From a virus, in the IMG/VR virus record IMGVR_UViG_3300021964_000018, positions 1 to 64,000 of that record: DNA of 64,000 nucleotides; one strand, given 5' to 3'. The notes beneath the pieces were generated by a model. It searched no databases and was not told the origin of the DNA. It saw only the letters and a program-made list of their open reading frames with translations. The position numbers and the translations under genes are program-made. The stretch's first letter is position 1, and each line of letters opens with the position of its first letter. This document shows positions 18,674 to 30,739 of this stretch, piece after piece.

Positions 18674-20590
18674 ATGTCTAGATCATTTAGTTTAAATCAA
18701 CTGACAGAAGGAATTAGAGAACGCCACTTAGGCGCTGATTCTTCTCGTCTTGTGTCCAAGTGGACACGTACAGGTCTTCTTCGAGGACTTCAAGAAAACA
18801 ACCGCGAAAACATGGCTCGCATGCTTGAAAACCAAGCGTCTCAGCTCCTTCGCGAAGCAAACACTTTAGGTAGCGGTGGATCTGCTGGAAACATTGATGG
18901 TTTTACCAATATCGCTTTTCCAATCGTTCGTCGAGTATTCGGTGGATTGGTAGCAAACGAATTAGTTTCTATTCAACCTATGTCTTTACCTTCCGGACTT
19001 CTTTTCTATCTTGATTATTCATATGGAGCAGATGTTGGTGGTGATGGAACTGGTGATGGAAACACAGATGCTACTTATGCTTCAACTTACAATAGAGGTG
19101 ATTCTCTTTATGGAAATCCTGGTGGTTCTAGTATCCGTACTGGTGCATCTGCAGTTGGTGGTCAATATGATCTTGCAGGTTCAGGATATTCAAAAGTTCA
19201 CGGAACTTATAAATTGAATGAAGGTTTGGCTCATATTGGTAAATTTGGAACCGGTGCTTCTCAATCAGGTGCAAATGGTGTAGCTGGTGTAGAAGGTGCT
19301 GACGGTAAATTACTACAATTTGACCCACAGATCATCAAAAGAATTAATGATGGCGACGCAGAATATGCATTCTTGGTTGCTTCAGCTTCAGTTCTTGTTG
19401 AAGATGCTGCAACTGGACGTTCATTAGACCCAACACAAGTTAAGCAAATTGCTTTATTTAGTGCTCTTGGCACTACAAATGGATTTACAGTACCTCCTGC
19501 TACTGTTCAAGGTGGAAGCAATGTATTGAACGTTCGTCGCCTTAATCAGTTAGGTACTATGGCAGGTGCACAGGACGCAATTACATTCACTCCTGATCCT
19601 CTTAAAGCACTTACTGATCTTGACGCAGGTATTCTTTTTGTAATGGAACTTGCTGATGGCGCAACTCCTGACGCGGATGCCGCTGGATTGGCAGCTGTAA
19701 CTAATCTTACTGCTTCTTTCCCAGTTGCTGATTCAGTATCAGCTGAAGGTGGAACTGGTGGAACTCTTGTTATTCCAAGCTTTGAGTCAGATTTTGCAGC
19801 TTCTCCAAGCCCAGTTATTCCTGAGATTGATATTAAGATTGAGTCTATCGCGGTAACAGCGACCACACGTAAGTTAAGAGCTCGTTGGTCTCCAGAACTT
19901 GCGCAAGATCTTAATGCTTATCACTCAATGGATGCTGAAGTTGAATTGACTCAGATTCTTTCTGAGCAGATTGCACTTGAGATCGATCGTGAGATTCTTA
20001 ATGATCTTCTTACAGAAGCAAAAGCAGCTAACTACTACTGGTCACGTGCTCCTGGTAAATTCGTTAAGAAGGATACTGGTGTCGTTGCATCTAGCACTAT
20101 TGGACCTAATTTCACGGGTACAGTTCGCGAATGGTACGAAACTCTTGTTGAAACCATTATCGACGTTGCTAACGAAATTCACAGAAAGACTCTTCGTGGA
20201 GCAGCTAACTTTATCGTGGTTTCACCTGAAGTAGCTACTATCTTCGAAGCTTCAGTTCTTTACAAGCCTTCTATCAAGATTGATGGACAAGGACAAGTTG
20301 GAACTCCTTTCTCTATCGGTGCAGAAGCTATTGGATCTCTTTCAAATCGCTTTACGGTTTACAAAGATCCTTACTTCCCACGCAACAAGATCCTTGTAGG
20401 ATACAAAGGTGGATCATATCTTGAGTCTGGATACGTCTATGCTCCTTATGTACCACTCATCGTTACTCCTACAATCTTCGCTCCTGAAGATTTCACACCA
20501 AGAAAAGGTGTAATGACTCGTTACGGTAAGAAAATGGTACGTGCCGATTTCTACGGAACAGTTACATGCCTTGACATGGACGTGATCTAA
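18674..20590 (+). CDS. Major capsid protein (T4 gp23-like) with a large internal insertion
   Basis: FPIVRRVF, VSIQPMSLPSGLLFYL, TRKLRARWSPELAQDLNAYH, EIDREIL, YAPYVPL, FTPRKGVMTRYG; propeptide ending LLRE/A. Confidence 0.97.
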   Translation: MSRSFSLNQLTEGIRERHLGADSSRLVSKWTRTGLLRGLQENNRENMARMLENQASQLLREANTLGSGGSAGNIDGFTNIAFPIVRRVFGGLVANELVSIQPMSLPSGLLFYLDYSYGADVGGDGTGDGNTDATYASTYNRGDSLYGNPGGSSIRTGASAVGGQYDLAGSGYSKVHGTYKLNEGLAHIGKFGTGASQSGANGVAGVEGADGKLLQFDPQIIKRINDGDAEYAFLVASASVLVEDAATGRSLDPTQVKQIALFSALGTTNGFTVPPATVQGGSNVLNVRRLNQLGTMAGAQDAITFTPDPLKALTDLDAGILFVMELADGATPDADAAGLAAVTNLTASFPVADSVSAEGGTGGTLVIPSFESDFAASPSPVIPEIDIKIESIAVTATTRKLRARWSPELAQDLNAYHSMDAEVELTQILSEQIALEIDREILNDLLTEAKAANYYWSRAPGKFVKKDTGVVASSTIGPNFTGTVREWYETLVETIIDVANEIHRKTLRGAANFIVVSPEVATIFEASVLYKPSIKIDGQGQVGTPFSIGAEAIGSLSNRFTVYKDPYFPRNKILVGYKGGSYLESGYVYAPYVPLIVTPTIFAPEDFTPRKGVMTRYGKKMVRADFYGTVTCLDMDVI

Positions 20591-24663: not shown

Positions 24664-25887
24664 ATGGAATTAACCGAGGCACAACTTCGTTTTTTAATTC
24701 GTGAGGTTATACGCAAAGTAAAGGGTGGGTGGAAAGTTTACCCTAAAAAACCTCGCAAGGGAGAGAAGCGTCGTCGTGCTTTGTCAAAAAAACCTTTAAG
24801 TTATAAACGTGCATTGGCACAACTTCGTGCAATTGAAAGAGGAAAAAGTTTAAAGGAAGGTCGTGAACATACAATAGTATCCGGCGATTATCTTGGTAAG
24901 ATAGCGAAAAAATATGGCGTAACAACTAGTCAGATTCAAAAAGCAAATCCTGATTTAAATCCTAATTCATTACAGCTAGGTCAAAAAATAATAATTCCTG
25001 ATGCTTTAAAGCGATTAAATAAAGATTTAAAACCTAGTAAAAAATTAATTGACTGGATGAAATACGAAGAAGGAAAAGTTAATAGATTAGGAGTGGCCAC
25101 GGGAGAACCTTATCTTGAATCTTATGATGACGGTGTAGGAAACTTGACAATAGGTTACGGTCGCAATCAAAAAAGTCAAAGAAAACAAACAATAGATACG
25201 GGTTATGCAGAAAATTTACTTAAATCTGATTTGAGCGATGCTGCTTCCTTATTGCAACAGTCAACTAAAGATTCTGTTAGCGAAAAAATAACAATTCCTT
25301 TTAAGTTAGATCAAAATCAATTTGATGCATTAACTAGTATAATTTTTAATGCAGGTAGAGGCGGATATATTAAGACGGGTTTACATCAAAAATTTATTAG
25401 TAAAGGAATAACATCAGGCAGTGAGTTTGAAAAAGCCTTTTTAGAAGCTAGAACTAGTAAAAAACTAGGTGGTTTAAAAGGAAGAAGAAAAAGAGAATTA
25501 GAAATATTTAAAAACAATAATTATCTTAACAAAAAAGATGATGAAAAAAGTGTTTTAAAAGAAGGTGATCCAAAAGTAGGAACAGGTAAAAAACCAAAAG
25601 GATCAGGTCGAAGGTTGTATACAGACGAAAATCCTAAAGATACAGTTCCAGTAAAGTTTAGAACGGCTTCAGATATTAGAAAGACATTTTCGCAAAAAAG
25701 TTTTAAATCAAAATCACATAATAGGCAGTCTCAAATAATTAATTTGGTGCATCAAAGGGTTCGAGCAGCATATCAAAATGCTAAAGATCCGGATACAAAA
25801 AAGAGATTGAAAAAAGCATATGATTATGCAAAAAAACGAAAAGCAGCTAGCAAAAAGAAAACTCAAAGAATGAGAAAGAAAAAATGA
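24664..25887 (+). CDS. Multidomain protein: leader + small basic domain + LysM + GH24 lysozyme + basic C-terminal domain
   Basis: LysM HTIVSGDYLGKIAKKYGVT...ANPDLNPNSLQLGQKIIIP; lysozyme YEEG...DDGVGNLTIGYG...NQFDALTSIIFNAG...RRKRE. Confidence 0.85.
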   Translation: MELTEAQLRFLIREVIRKVKGGWKVYPKKPRKGEKRRRALSKKPLSYKRALAQLRAIERGKSLKEGREHTIVSGDYLGKIAKKYGVTTSQIQKANPDLNPNSLQLGQKIIIPDALKRLNKDLKPSKKLIDWMKYEEGKVNRLGVATGEPYLESYDDGVGNLTIGYGRNQKSQRKQTIDTGYAENLLKSDLSDAASLLQQSTKDSVSEKITIPFKLDQNQFDALTSIIFNAGRGGYIKTGLHQKFISKGITSGSEFEKAFLEARTSKKLGGLKGRRKRELEIFKNNNYLNKKDDEKSVLKEGDPKVGTGKKPKGSGRRLYTDENPKDTVPVKFRTASDIRKTFSQKSFKSKSHNRQSQIINLVHQRVRAAYQNAKDPDTKKRLKKAYDYAKKRKAASKKKTQRMRKKK

Positions 25888-27017
25888 AAATTACAAAAAA
25901 ACAATTAAATTTACTTGCTGAGTCTGTTATTCTTGACTCAAAAAAAGAAGATACGATAGAAGATCTGGTTGAAAAAAGATTATCAATACAAGAAAAAAGA
26001 ATCCAGTTGTTAAAAGAAGGATATAATCTAGAATTGATAAAAGAGTTTAACGTTCAAGTGTCCGGTCCTAGAATCGAAACAGATGATATAACAGTTGAAG
26101 CTGGCAATGTGTCGATAGAGACAAATTTTGGAAAATGGGCAACTTACCTAGGCATAACAAAAGCAGTTTGTGCAACTGCAGTTCATATTGCATTGATATC
26201 TGCAGGCTGGGAAGGCGTATTAGCAATATTAATACCTGTTGCAATTCCTGTTTTAACTAGCCCAGTTATTATGGGTTCAATTGCATTGTTTTTATCTCGT
26301 TATTCGTTTTTTAGAAAAATAGCAGGATTTTTATTTAAAATGCTAATAGGAAAAAAGAATTATCAAAGAATTAACAATATGATAGATAACATAACTAATA
26401 TTATGATGAGTTCAACTGATAATGCAATTGAAAAGAAAGATGCATTAACTTTGTTTGTACAATCAGCCGGTTATGTTTTAGGACAACCAGAATTTAGAAA
26501 AAAATTAAAAGAATTGGCATATGCTTACATGTCAAGAAATAAAGAAAAAGTTAAACAAATCATGTCTGAATTAGATGTGATGGTTAGAAGTTTTGCACCA
26601 AGCCAATCTTCTTTAACTTTAGATGTTAAAGAAGACGAATTAACATTACCAGATAATTCACCTAAGCATGATGATATTGAAAATTTAGAAGCTGAATTAG
26701 ATAAGTCTGAACTAATACAAGAAAAAAGAAAGAGTAAAAAGAAAAAGGTTGATTATAAAAAATCCTATAAGAAATATCATAGTTCAAAAAAAGCTAAGCG
26801 AGAACGTGCACAAAGAAACGCAGCTGGACGAAAGATTAAAAATGAATTAGGGATAGAAATACCAAAGGGATATGAAATTGATCATAAAACAGCTATAGCG
26901 CACGGCGGATCTAACGATTTATCAAACTTAAGAATTATTCCTCGCAGCAAAAATAGGGCATTAGGCCAAAAAATAACAACTCGAAAAAGAAAAAAGAACG
27001 GGAGCTATAAAAAGTGA
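25884..27017 (+). CDS. Leader-bearing protein with hydrophobic segments and C-terminal HNH nuclease domain
   Basis: MKITKKQLNLLAE; central TM-like stretch; YEIDHKTAIAHGGSNDLSNLRIIPRSKN. Confidence 0.7.
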   Translation: MKITKKQLNLLAESVILDSKKEDTIEDLVEKRLSIQEKRIQLLKEGYNLELIKEFNVQVSGPRIETDDITVEAGNVSIETNFGKWATYLGITKAVCATAVHIALISAGWEGVLAILIPVAIPVLTSPVIMGSIALFLSRYSFFRKIAGFLFKMLIGKKNYQRINNMIDNITNIMMSSTDNAIEKKDALTLFVQSAGYVLGQPEFRKKLKELAYAYMSRNKEKVKQIMSELDVMVRSFAPSQSSLTLDVKEDELTLPDNSPKHDDIENLEAELDKSELIQEKRKSKKKKVDYKKSYKKYHSSKKAKRERAQRNAAGRKIKNELGIEIPKGYEIDHKTAIAHGGSNDLSNLRIIPRSKNRALGQKITTRKRKKNGSYKK

Positions 27018-28153
27018 AATTATCTATAAGTAAATTAAGGCAATTAATTCGAGAAAGTTTGGAAAAAAGAATCGCTTTTGCTAACGATATGATTAAATTA
27101 GGATTAACTCCGGAAGAAGCAGAAAAAAAAGGTGTTTTTAACATAAATCAGTTCGGAATGCCAGGGAAAAAAGAATTATCACCTTCAGGAAAATCTTTAT
27201 TTGATGATAAAAAAGCAATATATGCAACTAAAGATGTTGAAAAAGAAACAACTTATATGGGAAAACCTTATAAATACATTGAATCTGAAGAAGCGTTATT
27301 TATGGGTGCGATGGAAGCAATTAGAGCTGCGACTAAAAGAGGTAAAATGATGAAGCAGCTTTTTAGAAAATATGTTGATCCCAACTTTATGAATCAATTA
27401 ATTTTAATTCATTATGCTTCACCTGACCAGGTTTTAAAAAATATTAAGGCACAAAAAGGTAATTATGAATTAAGTTCTGTTGCATTAGCCCCTGAAGATT
27501 TTACCAAAAATAAAATCCAAGTGTTAAAAACAGCAATGATTTTAGATGGACATATAACTTATTTTGCAAACAATCAAGATGACGTATATTCTGGAAAAGG
27601 TTCTGACTATGTTCAGGCATTTTCTTCTCAAAAGGGATATGAACCATGGATCGAAGGTAATCCTGATCTGCTAGACTGGGAAGATGAAGTGATAGAACGT
27701 GGAAGAGCTGAAAGGCCCTACGCAGGAACAGATAGAACTAAATCATCGGGTGTTAATAAAACAGTTGTTAATATTAGAGGTGTAGAGAGATTTAAATCTC
27801 CTGCAATGTCCAGGTCAAATTATTTGCAAGATCCGGGTTTCGAACATTTTAAACAAGCTCCTGATGCACCTCGAGGTGTACCTCAAACTTCACGTGGCGA
27901 ACCACCTGTTGTTTTAGACAAAGAAGACTATTTGCCTAGATTTGATCAAGCAGCCGGCTCAGATTCAGCAATACCTGGAAATGAAGCGTTAGTTGATAAT
28001 TGGTCTGTGAAAGCAATTATTTTAAATCATGGTAAAGAAAACGAAAAATATGAAAAAATGTTTCGTGATGCAGGATATCAAGGACAGATAATGACATTTG
28101 ACGAAGCAGTTGCACAAAAATCATTATTAATAAATAAAGGACATAAAAGATGA
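27014..28153 (+). CDS. Hypothetical protein with shared leader
   Basis: GTG start overlapping the upstream stop; MKLSISKLRQLIRE. Confidence 0.6.
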   Translation: MKLSISKLRQLIRESLEKRIAFANDMIKLGLTPEEAEKKGVFNINQFGMPGKKELSPSGKSLFDDKKAIYATKDVEKETTYMGKPYKYIESEEALFMGAMEAIRAATKRGKMMKQLFRKYVDPNFMNQLILIHYASPDQVLKNIKAQKGNYELSSVALAPEDFTKNKIQVLKTAMILDGHITYFANNQDDVYSGKGSDYVQAFSSQKGYEPWIEGNPDLLDWEDEVIERGRAERPYAGTDRTKSSGVNKTVVNIRGVERFKSPAMSRSNYLQDPGFEHFKQAPDAPRGVPQTSRGEPPVVLDKEDYLPRFDQAAGSDSAIPGNEALVDNWSVKAIILNHGKENEKYEKMFRDAGYQGQIMTFDEAVAQKSLLINKGHKR

Positions 28154-28824
28154 AAATAACAAGAAGTGCATTAAGAAAAATAATTTTAGAAGTTGTTGTT
28201 GCAAGTAATGATACTAAAGAAAAAGTAGAAGATTTAGAAAAAAGTATTAAACAGGACAACCCAGAAGCGTCTGACGAAGATATTGATGATGCAATTAATA
28301 AATTAACAAAAAAACAAATGCAGGAAGAGCTTAAGCGTTTGTCTTATGTAAGCAAAGAACAAGGCCATACATACGGACTAGAACATCTACCTGATCAATA
28401 TGACCAAAAGAAAGCAGATGATATCATAGGACACACCTGACTGACTCATGTTCGGAAGAAGGGTTCTTCTTTAAATGAAGTTGGTTATGTTCTTTGGCAC
28501 TCTTTAAATGAAAGCGGTCACGTTGCTGTTTACGATGTTGAATGGCCTGATGGGACGATTGAAAGAAATATACCTGCACGTCTTTTAGAAAAAGTAAAAG
28601 ACAGCAATGATAATGTTGACGAACATGATGAACATGGTGTCGTTGGTCATGAAGAAGAATCGTTATTAGGTGAAAGAAAATACAAGAAAAGAAAAGGTAA
28701 AAAGAAAAAGAAAGCATCAAAGAAAAAGCCTAAGTATTGGTATTTAGGTGGTTATGGGATAGACCATGATCATGATTTTGCCGATTTTGGCGGCGACTTT
28801 GGTGGTGATGGAGGCGGAGAATGA
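28150..28824 (+). CDS. Putative selenoprotein (224 aa; UGA at codon 97 recoded as Sec) with shared leader
   Basis: The frame stays open for 127 codons after TGA 28438-28440 (GHT-U-LTHVRKKG...WHSLNESGHVAVYDVEWPDGTIERNIPARLLE...). It ends at TGA 28822-28824, which overlaps the next ATG (ATGA coupling). A SECIS-like hairpin follows the UGA. Confidence 0.75.
28441..28484 (+). promoter_or_regulatory. Bacterial-type SECIS-like stem-loop
   Basis: CTGACT/AGTTGG and CAT/ATG lower stem, internal loop, GGAAGAA/TTCTTCT upper stem, G-only apical loop 20 nt after the UGA. Confidence 0.7.
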
Positions 28825-29581: not shown

Positions 29582-30739
29582 ATGGCTACATTTTCACAAA
29601 TATCAAATCCAACTCCTTTTGGAGTCTACGATAACGAATCAGACTTTCAAGGTGATGCTGATAACATGTATACCTTTGTCAAAAGAAGGTTAGGTGATGA
29701 CATATTATCAGTAGAATTAACAAAAAAACAAATATTTGCAAATTTTGAAGAAGCTGTATTAGAATACAGTTCTATATTGAATCAGTATCAGGCCAAATCT
29801 CAACTGGTTAATTATTTAGGTTTTCCCACAGGGAGTGCATTAAGTGGAAGTGAAAATAAATTTCCACGAGAAAACTTAGAATATTTAACACGGTTCGCCG
29901 AACCTTACGCAATGGAGGCTGGTATCGGAGGATCTTACAATTTTTCGAGTGGATCCATCACCCTCGAGAGCGGCCGACAGGACTATGATCTTTACACAGA
30001 ACTAAAAGATGCCTCAGGTACTGCTTTGTTTGACAACACAAAAGGAAAACTTAGGGTTGTTGAAGTATTTCATTATAATCCTCAAGCTGCATATAGATTT
30101 TTTGACACTACATCAGCAATAAACTATCTAAACAATGAATTCAGTTTTGAATCATTTACTCCTGAAACTATATTTTATGTACTCCCTGTCTTTGAAGATA
30201 TTTTACGTGCAGGTCAGCTAGACCTTTCAAATAGAGTAAGAAGATCAAATTATAGTTATAAGGTGTCAGGAACTAAAATTAGAATATTTCCAATTCCCAC
30301 AACAGATACAAAACAATTATGGGTAAATGTTAGACAATATCCAGATCCTAATTCCCCTGCATATTCAGACCCATCAATTTATGGTGTGTCAAATATGAGC
30401 AATATTCCGTTTGGCAATATTCCTTATTCTAATATTAATTCAATAGGACGTCAATGGATTAGACAATATACATTAGCAATATCAATGGAACTATTAGGAT
30501 ATATTAGAGGTAAATTTGGAAGCATCCCGGTTCCTGGTGATTCTGTTACGTTAAATAGCAGTGATATGATATCTAACGGTAGGTCAGATAAGGAAAAATT
30601 AGTAACGACTTTAAAAGAAATGTTAGATACAATGACTTATGATAAGTTAGCTGAGTTGCAAGCAACTAGAGCAGAAAACGTTCAAAAACAGTTGAGATAT
30701 GTTCCTGTTCCAAATGGTTATGCAATCACAATTAAATAA
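29582..30739 (+). CDS. Neck/head-tail adaptor (T4 gp13-like)
   Basis: RRLGDDILSVELT, WIRQYTLA...LGYIRGKFGSIPVPG...LN; first gene of the neck-tail block. Confidence 0.8.
   Translation: MATFSQISNPTPFGVYDNESDFQGDADNMYTFVKRRLGDDILSVELTKKQIFANFEEAVLEYSSILNQYQAKSQLVNYLGFPTGSALSGSENKFPRENLEYLTRFAEPYAMEAGIGGSYNFSSGSITLESGRQDYDLYTELKDASGTALFDNTKGKLRVVEVFHYNPQAAYRFFDTTSAINYLNNEFSFESFTPETIFYVLPVFEDILRAGQLDLSNRVRRSNYSYKVSGTKIRIFPIPTTDTKQLWVNVRQYPDPNSPAYSDPSIYGVSNMSNIPFGNIPYSNINSIGRQWIRQYTLAISMELLGYIRGKFGSIPVPGDSVTLNSSDMISNGRSDKEKLVTTLKEMLDTMTYDKLAELQATRAENVQKQLRYVPVPNGYAITIK

What the first reader, a model, noticed from the sequence alone, without database searches (positions are those of the whole stretch)
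28150..28824. Phage-encoded selenoprotein: in-frame UGA followed by a bacterial SECIS hairpin
Seen in sequence: the 96-aa ORF stops at TGA 28438-28440, but the same frame continues for 127 sense codons. This fills the otherwise empty ~380-nt gap exactly, and the final TGA overlaps the next gene's ATG (ATGA), the same stop/start overlap used by the neighbouring genes. The UGA lies in the motif G-H-T-U-L-T-H-V, a His-x-Sec-x-x-His metal/redox-like site. More His and acidic residues follow (WHSL...YDVEWPDG.IERNIP, EHDEH), then a Lys tract and a Gly/Asp tail. Directly 3' of the UGA the RNA folds into CUGACU-CAU-[guuc]-GGAAGAA-(GGG)-UUCUUCU-[uuaa]-AUG-a-AGUUGG, with the apical loop 20 nt from the UGA. 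Established knowledge: bacterial SECIS elements lie immediately 3' of the Sec UGA inside the CDS and have a G in a small apical loop roughly 16-37 nt downstream. Inference: the phage borrows the host SelA/SelB/tRNA-Sec machinery to make a selenoprotein that also carries the putative capsid-targeting leader, so it may be packaged in the virion. From memory (unverified), T4-like marine phage proteins with H-x-C-x-x-H-V...YDV...ExNVP have Cys at this position, the usual Sec/Cys homolog signature. Phage selenoproteins are very rarely reported.
Basis: partly seen in the sequence, partly recalled or inferred. Interest (0 to 1): 0.95.

Follow-up and report, generated by a model that had tools for sequence, protein, structure and literature searches.

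The report
Phage gene encoding a selenocysteine protein
A small head-module gene of this uncultured estuarine/marine jumbo phage has an internal UGA "stop" that every related phage sequence keeps, followed by a co-varying RNA hairpin, at a position where distant relatives have cysteine; this is the signature of selenocysteine, which I found reported for no virus of bacteria.

Summary
ORF 28150-28440 ends at TGA 28438-28440. The same frame then runs 127 codons with no start codon and ends at TGA 28822-28824, which overlaps the next ATG.

The TGA is not an error. It is TGA in all 32 related viral loci, in 5 distant metagenome homologues, and in contigs of 4 independent sequencing runs. No relative has TGG.

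Six distant homologues (39-46% identical in the core) have Cys (TGC/TGT) at this codon, in H-x-C-x-x-H.

A 7-8 bp hairpin starts 10-16 nt after every TGA (window 28454-28470). Its loop contains G, and three pairs co-vary, with Arg and Ser/Ala codon choices changing together. None of the six Cys forms has a hairpin there.

TGA is an ordinary stop in 28 of 139 ORFs of this genome, so the genetic code is not reassigned. Five related phage records, one of them complete, hold no suppressor tRNA, tRNA-Sec or selA/B/D.

Best reading (about 0.86): a real phage selenoprotein decoded by the host's SelB machinery.

The host is unknown. The function is unknown: a small SH3-like barrel with four conserved His. 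Packaging into the virion is untested.

Earlier follow-ups of this scan reported similar phage selenoproteins on other DNA.

The parts
28150..28824 (+). Whole selenoprotein gene: 224 codons plus stop, with Sec at codon 97. It overlaps both neighbours by ATGA.
   Evidence: Homologues span the TGA.
28150..28191 (+). N-terminal leader MKITRSALRKIILE. It belongs to the MK[IL]T..L[RK]..LI.E family carried by about 18 genes of this genome. It is a putative capsid-targeting or cleavage tag (inference).
   Evidence: regex over all ORFs; neighbours and homologues.
28432..28449 (+). H95-T-U97-L-T-H100 motif. H95 is invariant and H100 is nearly invariant. Position 97 is TGA or Cys across the family.
28438..28440 (+). 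In-frame UGA, read as selenocysteine (inferred).
   Evidence: TGA in 32/32 viral loci and 5/5 distant homologues. No variant in 4 independent runs.
28441..28453 (+). 13-nt spacer between the UGA and the hairpin.
   Evidence: The spacer is 10-16 nt across the family.
28454..28470 (+). SECIS-like hairpin: 5' arm 28454-28460, loop GGG 28461-28463, 3' arm 28464-28470.
   Evidence: All 7 pairs form in 31 distinct sequences. Three pairs co-vary: AU/GC/GU, CG/AU (17:14), GU/AU/GC. T28470C, which turns the G.U pair into G-C, is common in the population.
28447..28599 (+). Conserved core: a small SH3/Tudor/KOW-like beta-barrel (residues about 100-150) carrying H117, G123, Y128 and D129.
   Evidence: AlphaFold models, pLDDT about 85-94 in the core. 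Fold searches gave Z <= 5.6 and only generic small barrels.
28675..28734 (+). Lys/Arg-rich tract (residues 176-195), followed by a Gly/Asp-rich acidic tail that runs to the stop.
   Evidence: The tract and tail are missing in the short forms of the family.

Best explanation
Gene 28150-28824 encodes one 224-residue protein. Its codon 97, UGA, is read as selenocysteine.

Proposed mechanism: the 17-nt stem-loop that starts 13 nt after the UGA acts as a bacterial-type SECIS. It recruits the host's SelB-GTP-Sec-tRNA(Sec) to the ribosome in competition with RF2. The phage supplies only the mRNA signal.

The product belongs to a purely viral family. A Sec (or, rarely, Cys) sits in an H-x-U/C-x-x-H motif at the entry to a small beta-barrel with further conserved His (H117, H159). 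This suggests a metal-binding or redox site.

The protein carries the N-terminal leader shared by about 18 genes of this phage and lies in the head module. It is therefore probably a packaged internal head protein.

Shown here: conservation of the TGA, the Sec/Cys pairing, the co-varying hairpin, and the absence of a code change or a phage suppressor tRNA. Inferred: SelB dependence, selenium incorporation, the chemistry of the site, and packaging.
For: 1. The codon is TGA in 32 of 32 related viral loci, with synonymous changes all around it. It is TGA at the same H-x-U position in 5 of 5 distant metagenome homologues. None has TGG.

2. In a search of 1.8 billion representative proteins, 55 family members end exactly at ..GHT. 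So gene callers cut the gene at the TGA.

3. Six homologues have Cys there, encoded by TGC or TGT and translatable by table 11. They are 39-46% identical over the core. hhalign against P0145 gives probability 98%, E = 1.4e-13, with Sec aligned to Cys.

4. All 7 hairpin pairs form in all 31 distinct close sequences, and 3 of the 7 pairs co-vary. No shuffle out of 500 reached the observed covariation score. The Arg codon (CGG vs AGG/AAG) changes together with the Ser/Ala codon (GCU vs UCU). This is an RNA-level constraint.

5. The five distant TGA forms have unrelated hairpin sequences at the same place: 7-8 bp, spacer 10-16 nt, loops GGG, CGUGA, GUC, AGUU and GUU, dG -6.2 to -9.0. All six Cys forms lack a stable hairpin there. 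Random positions of this genome reach dG <= -6 in 1.9% of cases.

6. The downstream 127 codons have no start codon.

7. TGA ends 28 of 139 ORFs, and no other gene has a gap-filling TGA extension.

8. No tRNA-Sec, UCA-anticodon tRNA, selA, selB or selD was found in this record or in four related ones, including a complete 284-kb genome.

9. These are the published criteria for bacterial selenoproteins: Sec/Cys pairs, conserved flanks, and a downstream stem-loop with G in the apical loop (PMC2398784).
Against: There is no direct evidence of selenium incorporation or of SelB binding.

The host is unknown, so its Sec machinery could not be checked. The only hint is indirect. The phage's own tmRNA has the tag ANNNKHFALAA. 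That tag is identical in 18 MAG species, mostly labelled Myxococcota or Deltaproteobacteria (ARAGORN confirmed a tmRNA with this tag in 7 of the 8 loci checked). Of these, 17 have selB and/or tRNA-Sec above the curated cut-offs. But those MAGs are mostly 60-73% GC against 33% for the phage, and the rest of the tmRNA is at most 71% identical.

The hairpin has no bulged U like the E. coli fdhF SECIS (from memory). It matches no Rfam family, though bacterial SECIS elements are poorly represented there (bioRxiv 10.64898/2026.04.03.716425).

The window's own hairpin is the weakest of the family because it has a closing G.U pair (dG about -5).

Cys forms are rare (6), which is unusual for a selenoprotein family.
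Confidence: 0.86

Rival explanations
1. Programmed UGA read-through without selenium. A near-cognate tRNA (normally tRNA-Trp) reads the UGA at low frequency, helped by the downstream hairpin. The result is a short 96-residue product and a long one, as for the Q-beta A1 protein.
For: UGA followed by C is a leaky context (established knowledge). The databases show W at this position, but only because gene callers used code 4. A hairpin could slow termination.
Against: Non-TGA relatives have Cys, never Trp. No sequence has TGG among 37 DNA-checked sequences, although TGG is one transition away from TGA. The UGA lies inside the most conserved motif of the protein, not at a domain boundary, so the short product would lack the whole conserved domain. 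The hairpin disappears exactly when the codon is Cys.
Confidence: 0.08
2. TGA is a sense codon for this phage, either through code 4 or through a phage suppressor tRNA. On this view the gene is ordinary.
For: Some gene callers translated the contigs with TGA=W (ends reading 'GGGEWK'; 'with_TGA=W'). Stop-codon-recoded phages exist (established knowledge).
Against: 28 of 139 ORFs end in TGA, including both neighbours at ATGA overlaps. This is the only gene with an in-frame TGA. ARAGORN found no tRNA in this record. The tRNAs of three related records, one from a complete genome, include no UCA anticodon.
Confidence: 0.02
3. A broken gene or an assembly error, or two separate genes with the second starting downstream of the TGA.
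For: By table 11 the ORF simply stops at 28440.
Against: TGA is present in 32 independent viral contigs, in 5 distant ones, and in contigs of 4 independent runs. Many third-codon-position (mostly synonymous) differences among strains lie on both sides of the TGA. There is no in-frame ATG, GTG or TTG in the 127 downstream codons.
Confidence: 0.01

Closest known systems
Bacterial selenoprotein genes with an in-ORF SECIS read by SelB (prototype E. coli fdhF; bSECIS criteria as used in PMC2398784)
   Same: In-frame UGA. A stem-loop immediately downstream within the coding sequence. G in a small apical loop, with the loop about 20 nt from the UGA. Cys at the same position in homologues. Conserved flanks. 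The hairpin is 17 nt, similar to the minimal fdhF element (from memory).
   Different: The gene is carried by a phage. The protein family is exclusively viral: it was not found in one genome each of 185,579 prokaryote species. There is no bulged U in the stem. Sec forms greatly outnumber Cys forms. The function is unknown.
Poxvirus glutathione-peroxidase selenoproteins (molluscum contagiosum virus, fowlpox virus; PMC1802603 listed, details from memory)
   Same: A virus encodes a selenoprotein and relies on the host's Sec machinery.
   Different: Those are viruses of animals with eukaryotic-type SECIS elements, and the genes are captured cellular GPx genes. Here the virus infects bacteria, the SECIS is of the bacterial type, and the family has no cellular homologue.
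Q-beta A1 read-through protein (UGA read as Trp; established knowledge)
   Same: A phage gene in which a UGA is passed to make a longer product.
   Different: In Q-beta the stop lies at a domain boundary, both products function, and Trp is inserted. Here the UGA is inside the conserved motif, relatives have Cys, and a co-varying SECIS-like hairpin follows.
T4 internal proteins IPI/IPII/IPIII with a capsid-targeting sequence cleaved at L/I-x-E by the prohead protease (established knowledge, from memory)
   Same: A short N-terminal leader ending in [LI]-x-E is shared by many unrelated small proteins of a phage with a T4-like capsid. The gene lies in the head module.
   Different: The leader sequence is different. 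Neither cleavage nor packaging was tested here.
Stop-codon-recoded phages (TGA=Trp or TAG=Gln across late genes; established knowledge)
   Same: An in-frame stop codon in a phage structural-module gene.
   Different: Recoded phages carry many in-frame stops and often suppressor tRNAs. Here there is a single site per genome, and TGA is a normal stop elsewhere.

Membership tests
Bacterial-type selenoprotein gene (UGA + in-ORF SECIS) | In-frame UGA conserved at the same codon among homologues | tested here: met
   32/32 viral loci and 5/5 distant homologues. 55 database proteins end exactly before it.
Bacterial-type selenoprotein gene (UGA + in-ORF SECIS) | Homologues with Cys aligned to the UGA | tested here: met
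   Six Cys forms (TGC/TGT) with H-x-C-x-x-H. hhalign probability 98%, E = 1.4e-13.
Bacterial-type selenoprotein gene (UGA + in-ORF SECIS) | Stem-loop just 3' of the UGA with G in a small apical loop, loop roughly 16-37 nt from the UGA | tested here: met
   A 7-8 bp stem, spacer 10-16 nt, loops GGG/GGA/GUC/AGUU/GUU/CGUGA. The distance range is quoted from memory.
Bacterial-type selenoprotein gene (UGA + in-ORF SECIS) | Structure supported by covariation and tied to the UGA (absent in Cys forms) | tested here: met
   Three of 7 pairs show compensatory changes and all cells pair. None of the 6 Cys forms has a hairpin, and the background rate is 1.9%.
Bacterial-type selenoprotein gene (UGA + in-ORF SECIS) | Host has selA, selB, selC and selD | tested here: inconclusive
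   The host is unknown. The 18 MAG species whose tmRNA tag is identical to the phage's mostly have selB and/or tRNA-Sec (17/18). Their GC content and tmRNA body do not fit a direct host.
Bacterial-type selenoprotein gene (UGA + in-ORF SECIS) | SelB binds the hairpin; selenium is found in the protein | not testable with these tools
   This needs 75Se labelling, mass spectrometry or binding assays.
Rfam SECIS families | Match to a curated covariance model | tested here: not met
   cmscan of 28380-28540 at E <= 10 gave only two chance hits. Bacterial SECIS elements are poorly covered by Rfam.
Genome-wide TGA reassignment (code 4/25) | Many in-frame TGAs, and TGA not used as a stop | tested here: not met
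   TGA ends 28 of 139 ORFs and there is a single in-frame TGA.
T4-type capsid-targeted internal proteins | Shared N-terminal leader ending L/I-x-E on unrelated proteins, cleaved by the prohead protease and packaged | tested here: inconclusive
   The leader recurs on about 18 ORFs, and the gene lies between the major head protein and the head-tail adaptor. Cleavage and packaging were not tested.

The most novel reading that the evidence does not exclude
This is one member of a widespread family of phage proteins in which Sec forms greatly outnumber Cys forms. The proteins are packaged in the capsid through a shared leader and delivered into the host with the DNA. There, a selenocysteine held among four conserved histidines acts as a metal or redox centre. 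It would be the first selenoenzyme of a virus of bacteria. It would also tie the phage's infectivity to the host's Sec machinery and to selenium supply.
Probability: 0.3. Interest if true: 0.92.

Novelty: new variant of a known kind. Interest (0 to 1): 0.85.

Why it matters
Selenoproteins are known from cells and from a few poxviruses. In the literature I could search I found none described for a virus of bacteria. This motif is also absent from the supplementary sequence files of the large marine selenoproteome survey.

A phage gene that can only be completed by the host's SelB system has several consequences:
- The phage is restricted to Sec-using hosts, which gives a new handle for host prediction.
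- Standard gene calling truncates the gene or mistranslates it as Trp in every database copy seen here.
- Selenium availability could affect phage production in estuaries and the sea, where this phage occurs in many independent samples.
- A new H-x-U-x-x-H site on a small beta-barrel awaits biochemical study.

The family is also a natural set of compact SECIS variants of 17 nt or slightly more, inside coding sequence.

Tried and rejected
- tblastn of the read-through product against 50,697 deposited phage genomes gave no match. No cultured relative carries the gene.
- Pfam and PHROGs found no family for this protein.
- Foldseek against the PDB and VIA-align wide found only generic SH3/Tudor/KOW small barrels (E >= 0.1, Z <= 5.6). 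They give no functional lead.
- The ESM Atlas feature search returned only viral hypothetical clusters at 0.84-0.87.
- Rfam gave no SECIS match.
- The genome-contig scan for the family found nothing. The scan with alignment A3 failed because no stretch was conserved enough.
- Host search by tmRNA: the tag is identical in 18 MAG species, but the tmRNA body is at most 71% identical. About 400 genomes of the phylum of those MAGs gave nothing closer. 'Relatives' cannot be drawn for a virus record.
- A scan of the whole 141-kb record for other in-frame TGAs with a hairpin gave two candidates. Both lie antisense to long ORFs, so I rejected them.
- The tRNA-Sec model hits in related phages were below the cut-off and turned out to be tRNA-Leu and tRNA-Ser.
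- The Rdx-like gene next to a Cys form (L067) has no in-frame TGA.

Full report
**Observation**

The window is the first 64 kb of a 141-kb IMG/VR virus record, 33% GC, estimated 54% complete. ORF 28150-28440 (96 codons) starts at an ATGA overlap with the preceding gene and ends at TGA 28438-28440. The same frame continues for 127 codons to TGA 28822-28824, which overlaps the ATG of the next gene at 28821.

The 127 downstream codons contain no in-frame ATG, GTG or TTG. They cannot be a separate gene with a usual start. With about 7.5% stop codons expected per random codon at this composition, an open stretch of this length has a chance of about 5e-5 (my arithmetic).

The 60-nt region folds at -16 kcal/mol, z = -2.5 against shuffles.

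**Is the TGA real and conserved?**

A search of 5.8 billion proteins found 77 relatives. In an alignment of 24 of them the position reads W. Several end in 'GGGEWK', which is the window's terminal TGA-AAA read by code 4, so the W is an artefact of gene calling.

I fetched DNA for 33 related viral contigs; one of them (L034) has no recognisable motif. All 32 loci with the motif IIGHT?LTHV have TGA at that codon. The neighbouring His, Thr and Leu codons vary synonymously.

A profile search of 1.84 billion cluster representatives found 138 family members. Of the family proteins gathered, 55 end exactly at ..GHT and many others start just after it. The gene is routinely cut in two at the TGA.

Five divergent members that read W translate only with TGA=W, and the TGA is at the same H-x-U position.

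Contigs from four independent estuary, marine and seawater runs show many third-position differences among strains across the gene, but none at 28438-28440. No sequence with TGG was found.

**Cys homologues**

Six distant members have Cys at this position, in HSCATHV, HACANHV, HSCASHV, HSCATHA, HDCPKHV and HACASHV. The codons are TGC or TGT, and the genes translate by table 11.

They share 39-46% identity with the nearest TGA forms over the roughly 70-residue core. The profile of the close family aligns to one of them with probability 98% and E = 1.4e-13, placing the Sec position on its Cys. Several carry the same N-terminal leader.

**The hairpin**

In an alignment of 33 sequences (31 distinct) around the TGA, all seven upper-stem pairs form in every sequence. 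Three pairs change on both sides or through G.U intermediates: AU/GC/GU; CG/AU at 17:14; GU/AU/GC. No shuffle out of 500 reached the observed covariation score, and sliding the partners by 1-3 columns drops pairing from 85% to 27-47%.

The changes run through the protein sequence. R-K-K-G-S-S, K-R-K-D-S-A and K-R-K-G-S-S alternate, so that the Arg codon (CGG against AGG/AAG) always matches the Ser/Ala codon opposite it. Third positions inside the stem (AAG, never AAA; GGU/GAU) are invariant in a 33% GC genome.

The long lower stem is not supported: 77% of cells pair and nothing is compensatory.

The five divergent TGA forms carry hairpins of unrelated sequence at the same place. They have 7-8 bp, spacer 10-16 nt, loops GGG, CGUGA, GUC, AGUU and GUU, and dG from -6.2 to -9.0. 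All six Cys forms lack any stable hairpin there, and one has a 9-residue insertion at that very spot. Random positions of this genome reach dG <= -6 in 1.9% of cases.

In the population, T28470C is common. It converts the window's closing G.U pair into G-C.

**Alternatives**

Code 4 or 25 is excluded. TGA ends 28 of 139 ORFs, both neighbours use it in ATGA overlaps, and no other gene has an in-frame TGA with a gap-filling extension.

A phage suppressor tRNA is unlikely. ARAGORN finds no tRNA in this record. The tRNAs of three related records, including a complete 284-kb genome whose homologue also has TGA plus hairpin, read Lys, Met, Leu, Thr, Arg, Gly and Ser only.

No tRNA-Sec, selA, selB or selD is present in these five phage records. 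Decoding must therefore use host factors.

Plain read-through by tRNA-Trp does not explain three facts. The only alternative residue in the family is Cys. TGG never occurs. The hairpin is lost exactly when the codon is Cys.

Together these features meet the published criteria for bacterial selenoproteins (PMC2398784).

**Context and function**

The phage has a T4-like major head protein. The closest cultured match is a Flavobacterium phage at 45% identity. It also has a terminase, a portal, UvsX and DnaB.

The gene lies between the major head protein (18674-20590) and a head-tail adaptor (29582-30739). It sits in a run of genes whose products start with the same leader, MK[IL]T..L[RK]..LI.E. 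These include a lysozyme-LysM protein and an HNH/EndoVII-like protein. About 18 ORFs of the record carry the leader. By analogy with T4 internal proteins (from memory) this suggests capsid targeting and cleavage. That is inference only.

The conserved core is H95-x-U97-x-x-H100, followed by a small five-stranded barrel (pLDDT about 90) with H117, G123 and Y128-D129, then H159. Fold searches return only generic SH3/Tudor/KOW barrels. A His-rich Sec site suggests metal binding or redox chemistry, but I could not test this.

The family was not found in one genome each of 185,579 prokaryote species or in deposited phage genomes.

**Host**

The host is unresolved. The record encodes its own tmRNA (117285-117652, outside the window) with the tag ANNNKHFALAA. 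Exactly this tag occurs in 18 species genomes, mostly MAGs labelled Myxococcota, Deltaproteobacteria or Oligoflexia. ARAGORN confirmed a tmRNA with this tag in 7 of the 8 loci I checked; the eighth (L084) gave none. Thirteen of the 18 have selB and 13 have tRNA-Sec above the curated cut-offs, and 17 of 18 have at least one.

However, their loci are mostly 60-73% GC, and the rest of the tmRNA is at most 71% identical to the phage's. About 400 genomes of their phylum gave nothing closer. This only hints at a Sec-using lineage.

According to a recent preprint, Pelagibacter lacks selC, whereas the abundant marine lineage Actinomarina has the full machinery. So Sec-competent hosts exist in these waters.

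**Novelty**

Five full-text searches found no phage-encoded selenoprotein. The motif is absent from the supplementary sequences of the GOS selenoproteome paper.

Earlier follow-ups of this scan reported similar phage selenoprotein candidates on other DNA. Two of them are 'leader-family' genes of marine jumbo or T4-like phages and may be the same family. Those are AI notes, not independent evidence. A look-up by sequence found no near-identical stretch.

**Verdict**

This is a genuine, conserved recoding site, most likely selenocysteine (0.86). The decoding mechanism is known, but the carrier (a phage) and the protein family are new.

Noticed in passing
G000:C1:117285-117652 (same record, outside the window; locus L091): The phage encodes its own tmRNA with the tag ANNNKHFALAA. 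A related complete 284-kb phage (L065) also has one, with the tag ANDNVEYDYALAA. The tag of this phage is identical to that of 18 MAG species, mostly labelled Myxococcota or Deltaproteobacteria.
   Followed up: partly
window 3825, 15191, 21605, 25884, 27014, 28150, 28821 and 11 more ORF starts in the record: About 18 otherwise unrelated ORFs start with the same leader, MK[IL]T..L[RK]..LI.E. This is a candidate capsid-targeting or protease-cleavage tag. Some homologues of the selenoprotein carry two copies in tandem.
   Followed up: partly
window 24664-25887 and 25884-27017: Two leader-bearing neighbours carry enzyme domains. One has LysM plus phage lysozyme. The other has an HNH/endonuclease-VII-like C-terminus (phrog_4590, phrog_1035). 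If packaged, they would be virion-borne enzymes.
   Followed up: no
window 28470: A common population variant, T>C (61 of 81 depth in one run), turns the closing G.U pair of the hairpin into G-C. The window's own allele is the weaker, minority form in that run.
   Followed up: yes
L067:216-428: On the contig of a Cys-form homologue, a 70-residue neighbour has a weak hit to Pfam Rdx (the SelW/SelT fold family). It reads C-Q-L-S where that family has CxxC/U, and it has no in-frame TGA.
   Followed up: partly
G016:C30:122656-123858 (a Myxococcota MAG): A GTPase matching the N-terminal half of the selB profile has one in-frame TGA. It may be a bacterial selenoprotein or a broken gene.
   Followed up: no
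window 28424-28720, minus strand: A 98-codon ORF lies antisense to the selenoprotein's downstream half. It is most likely a by-product of the gap left by table-11 calling, and it could be mis-annotated as a gene.
   Followed up: no
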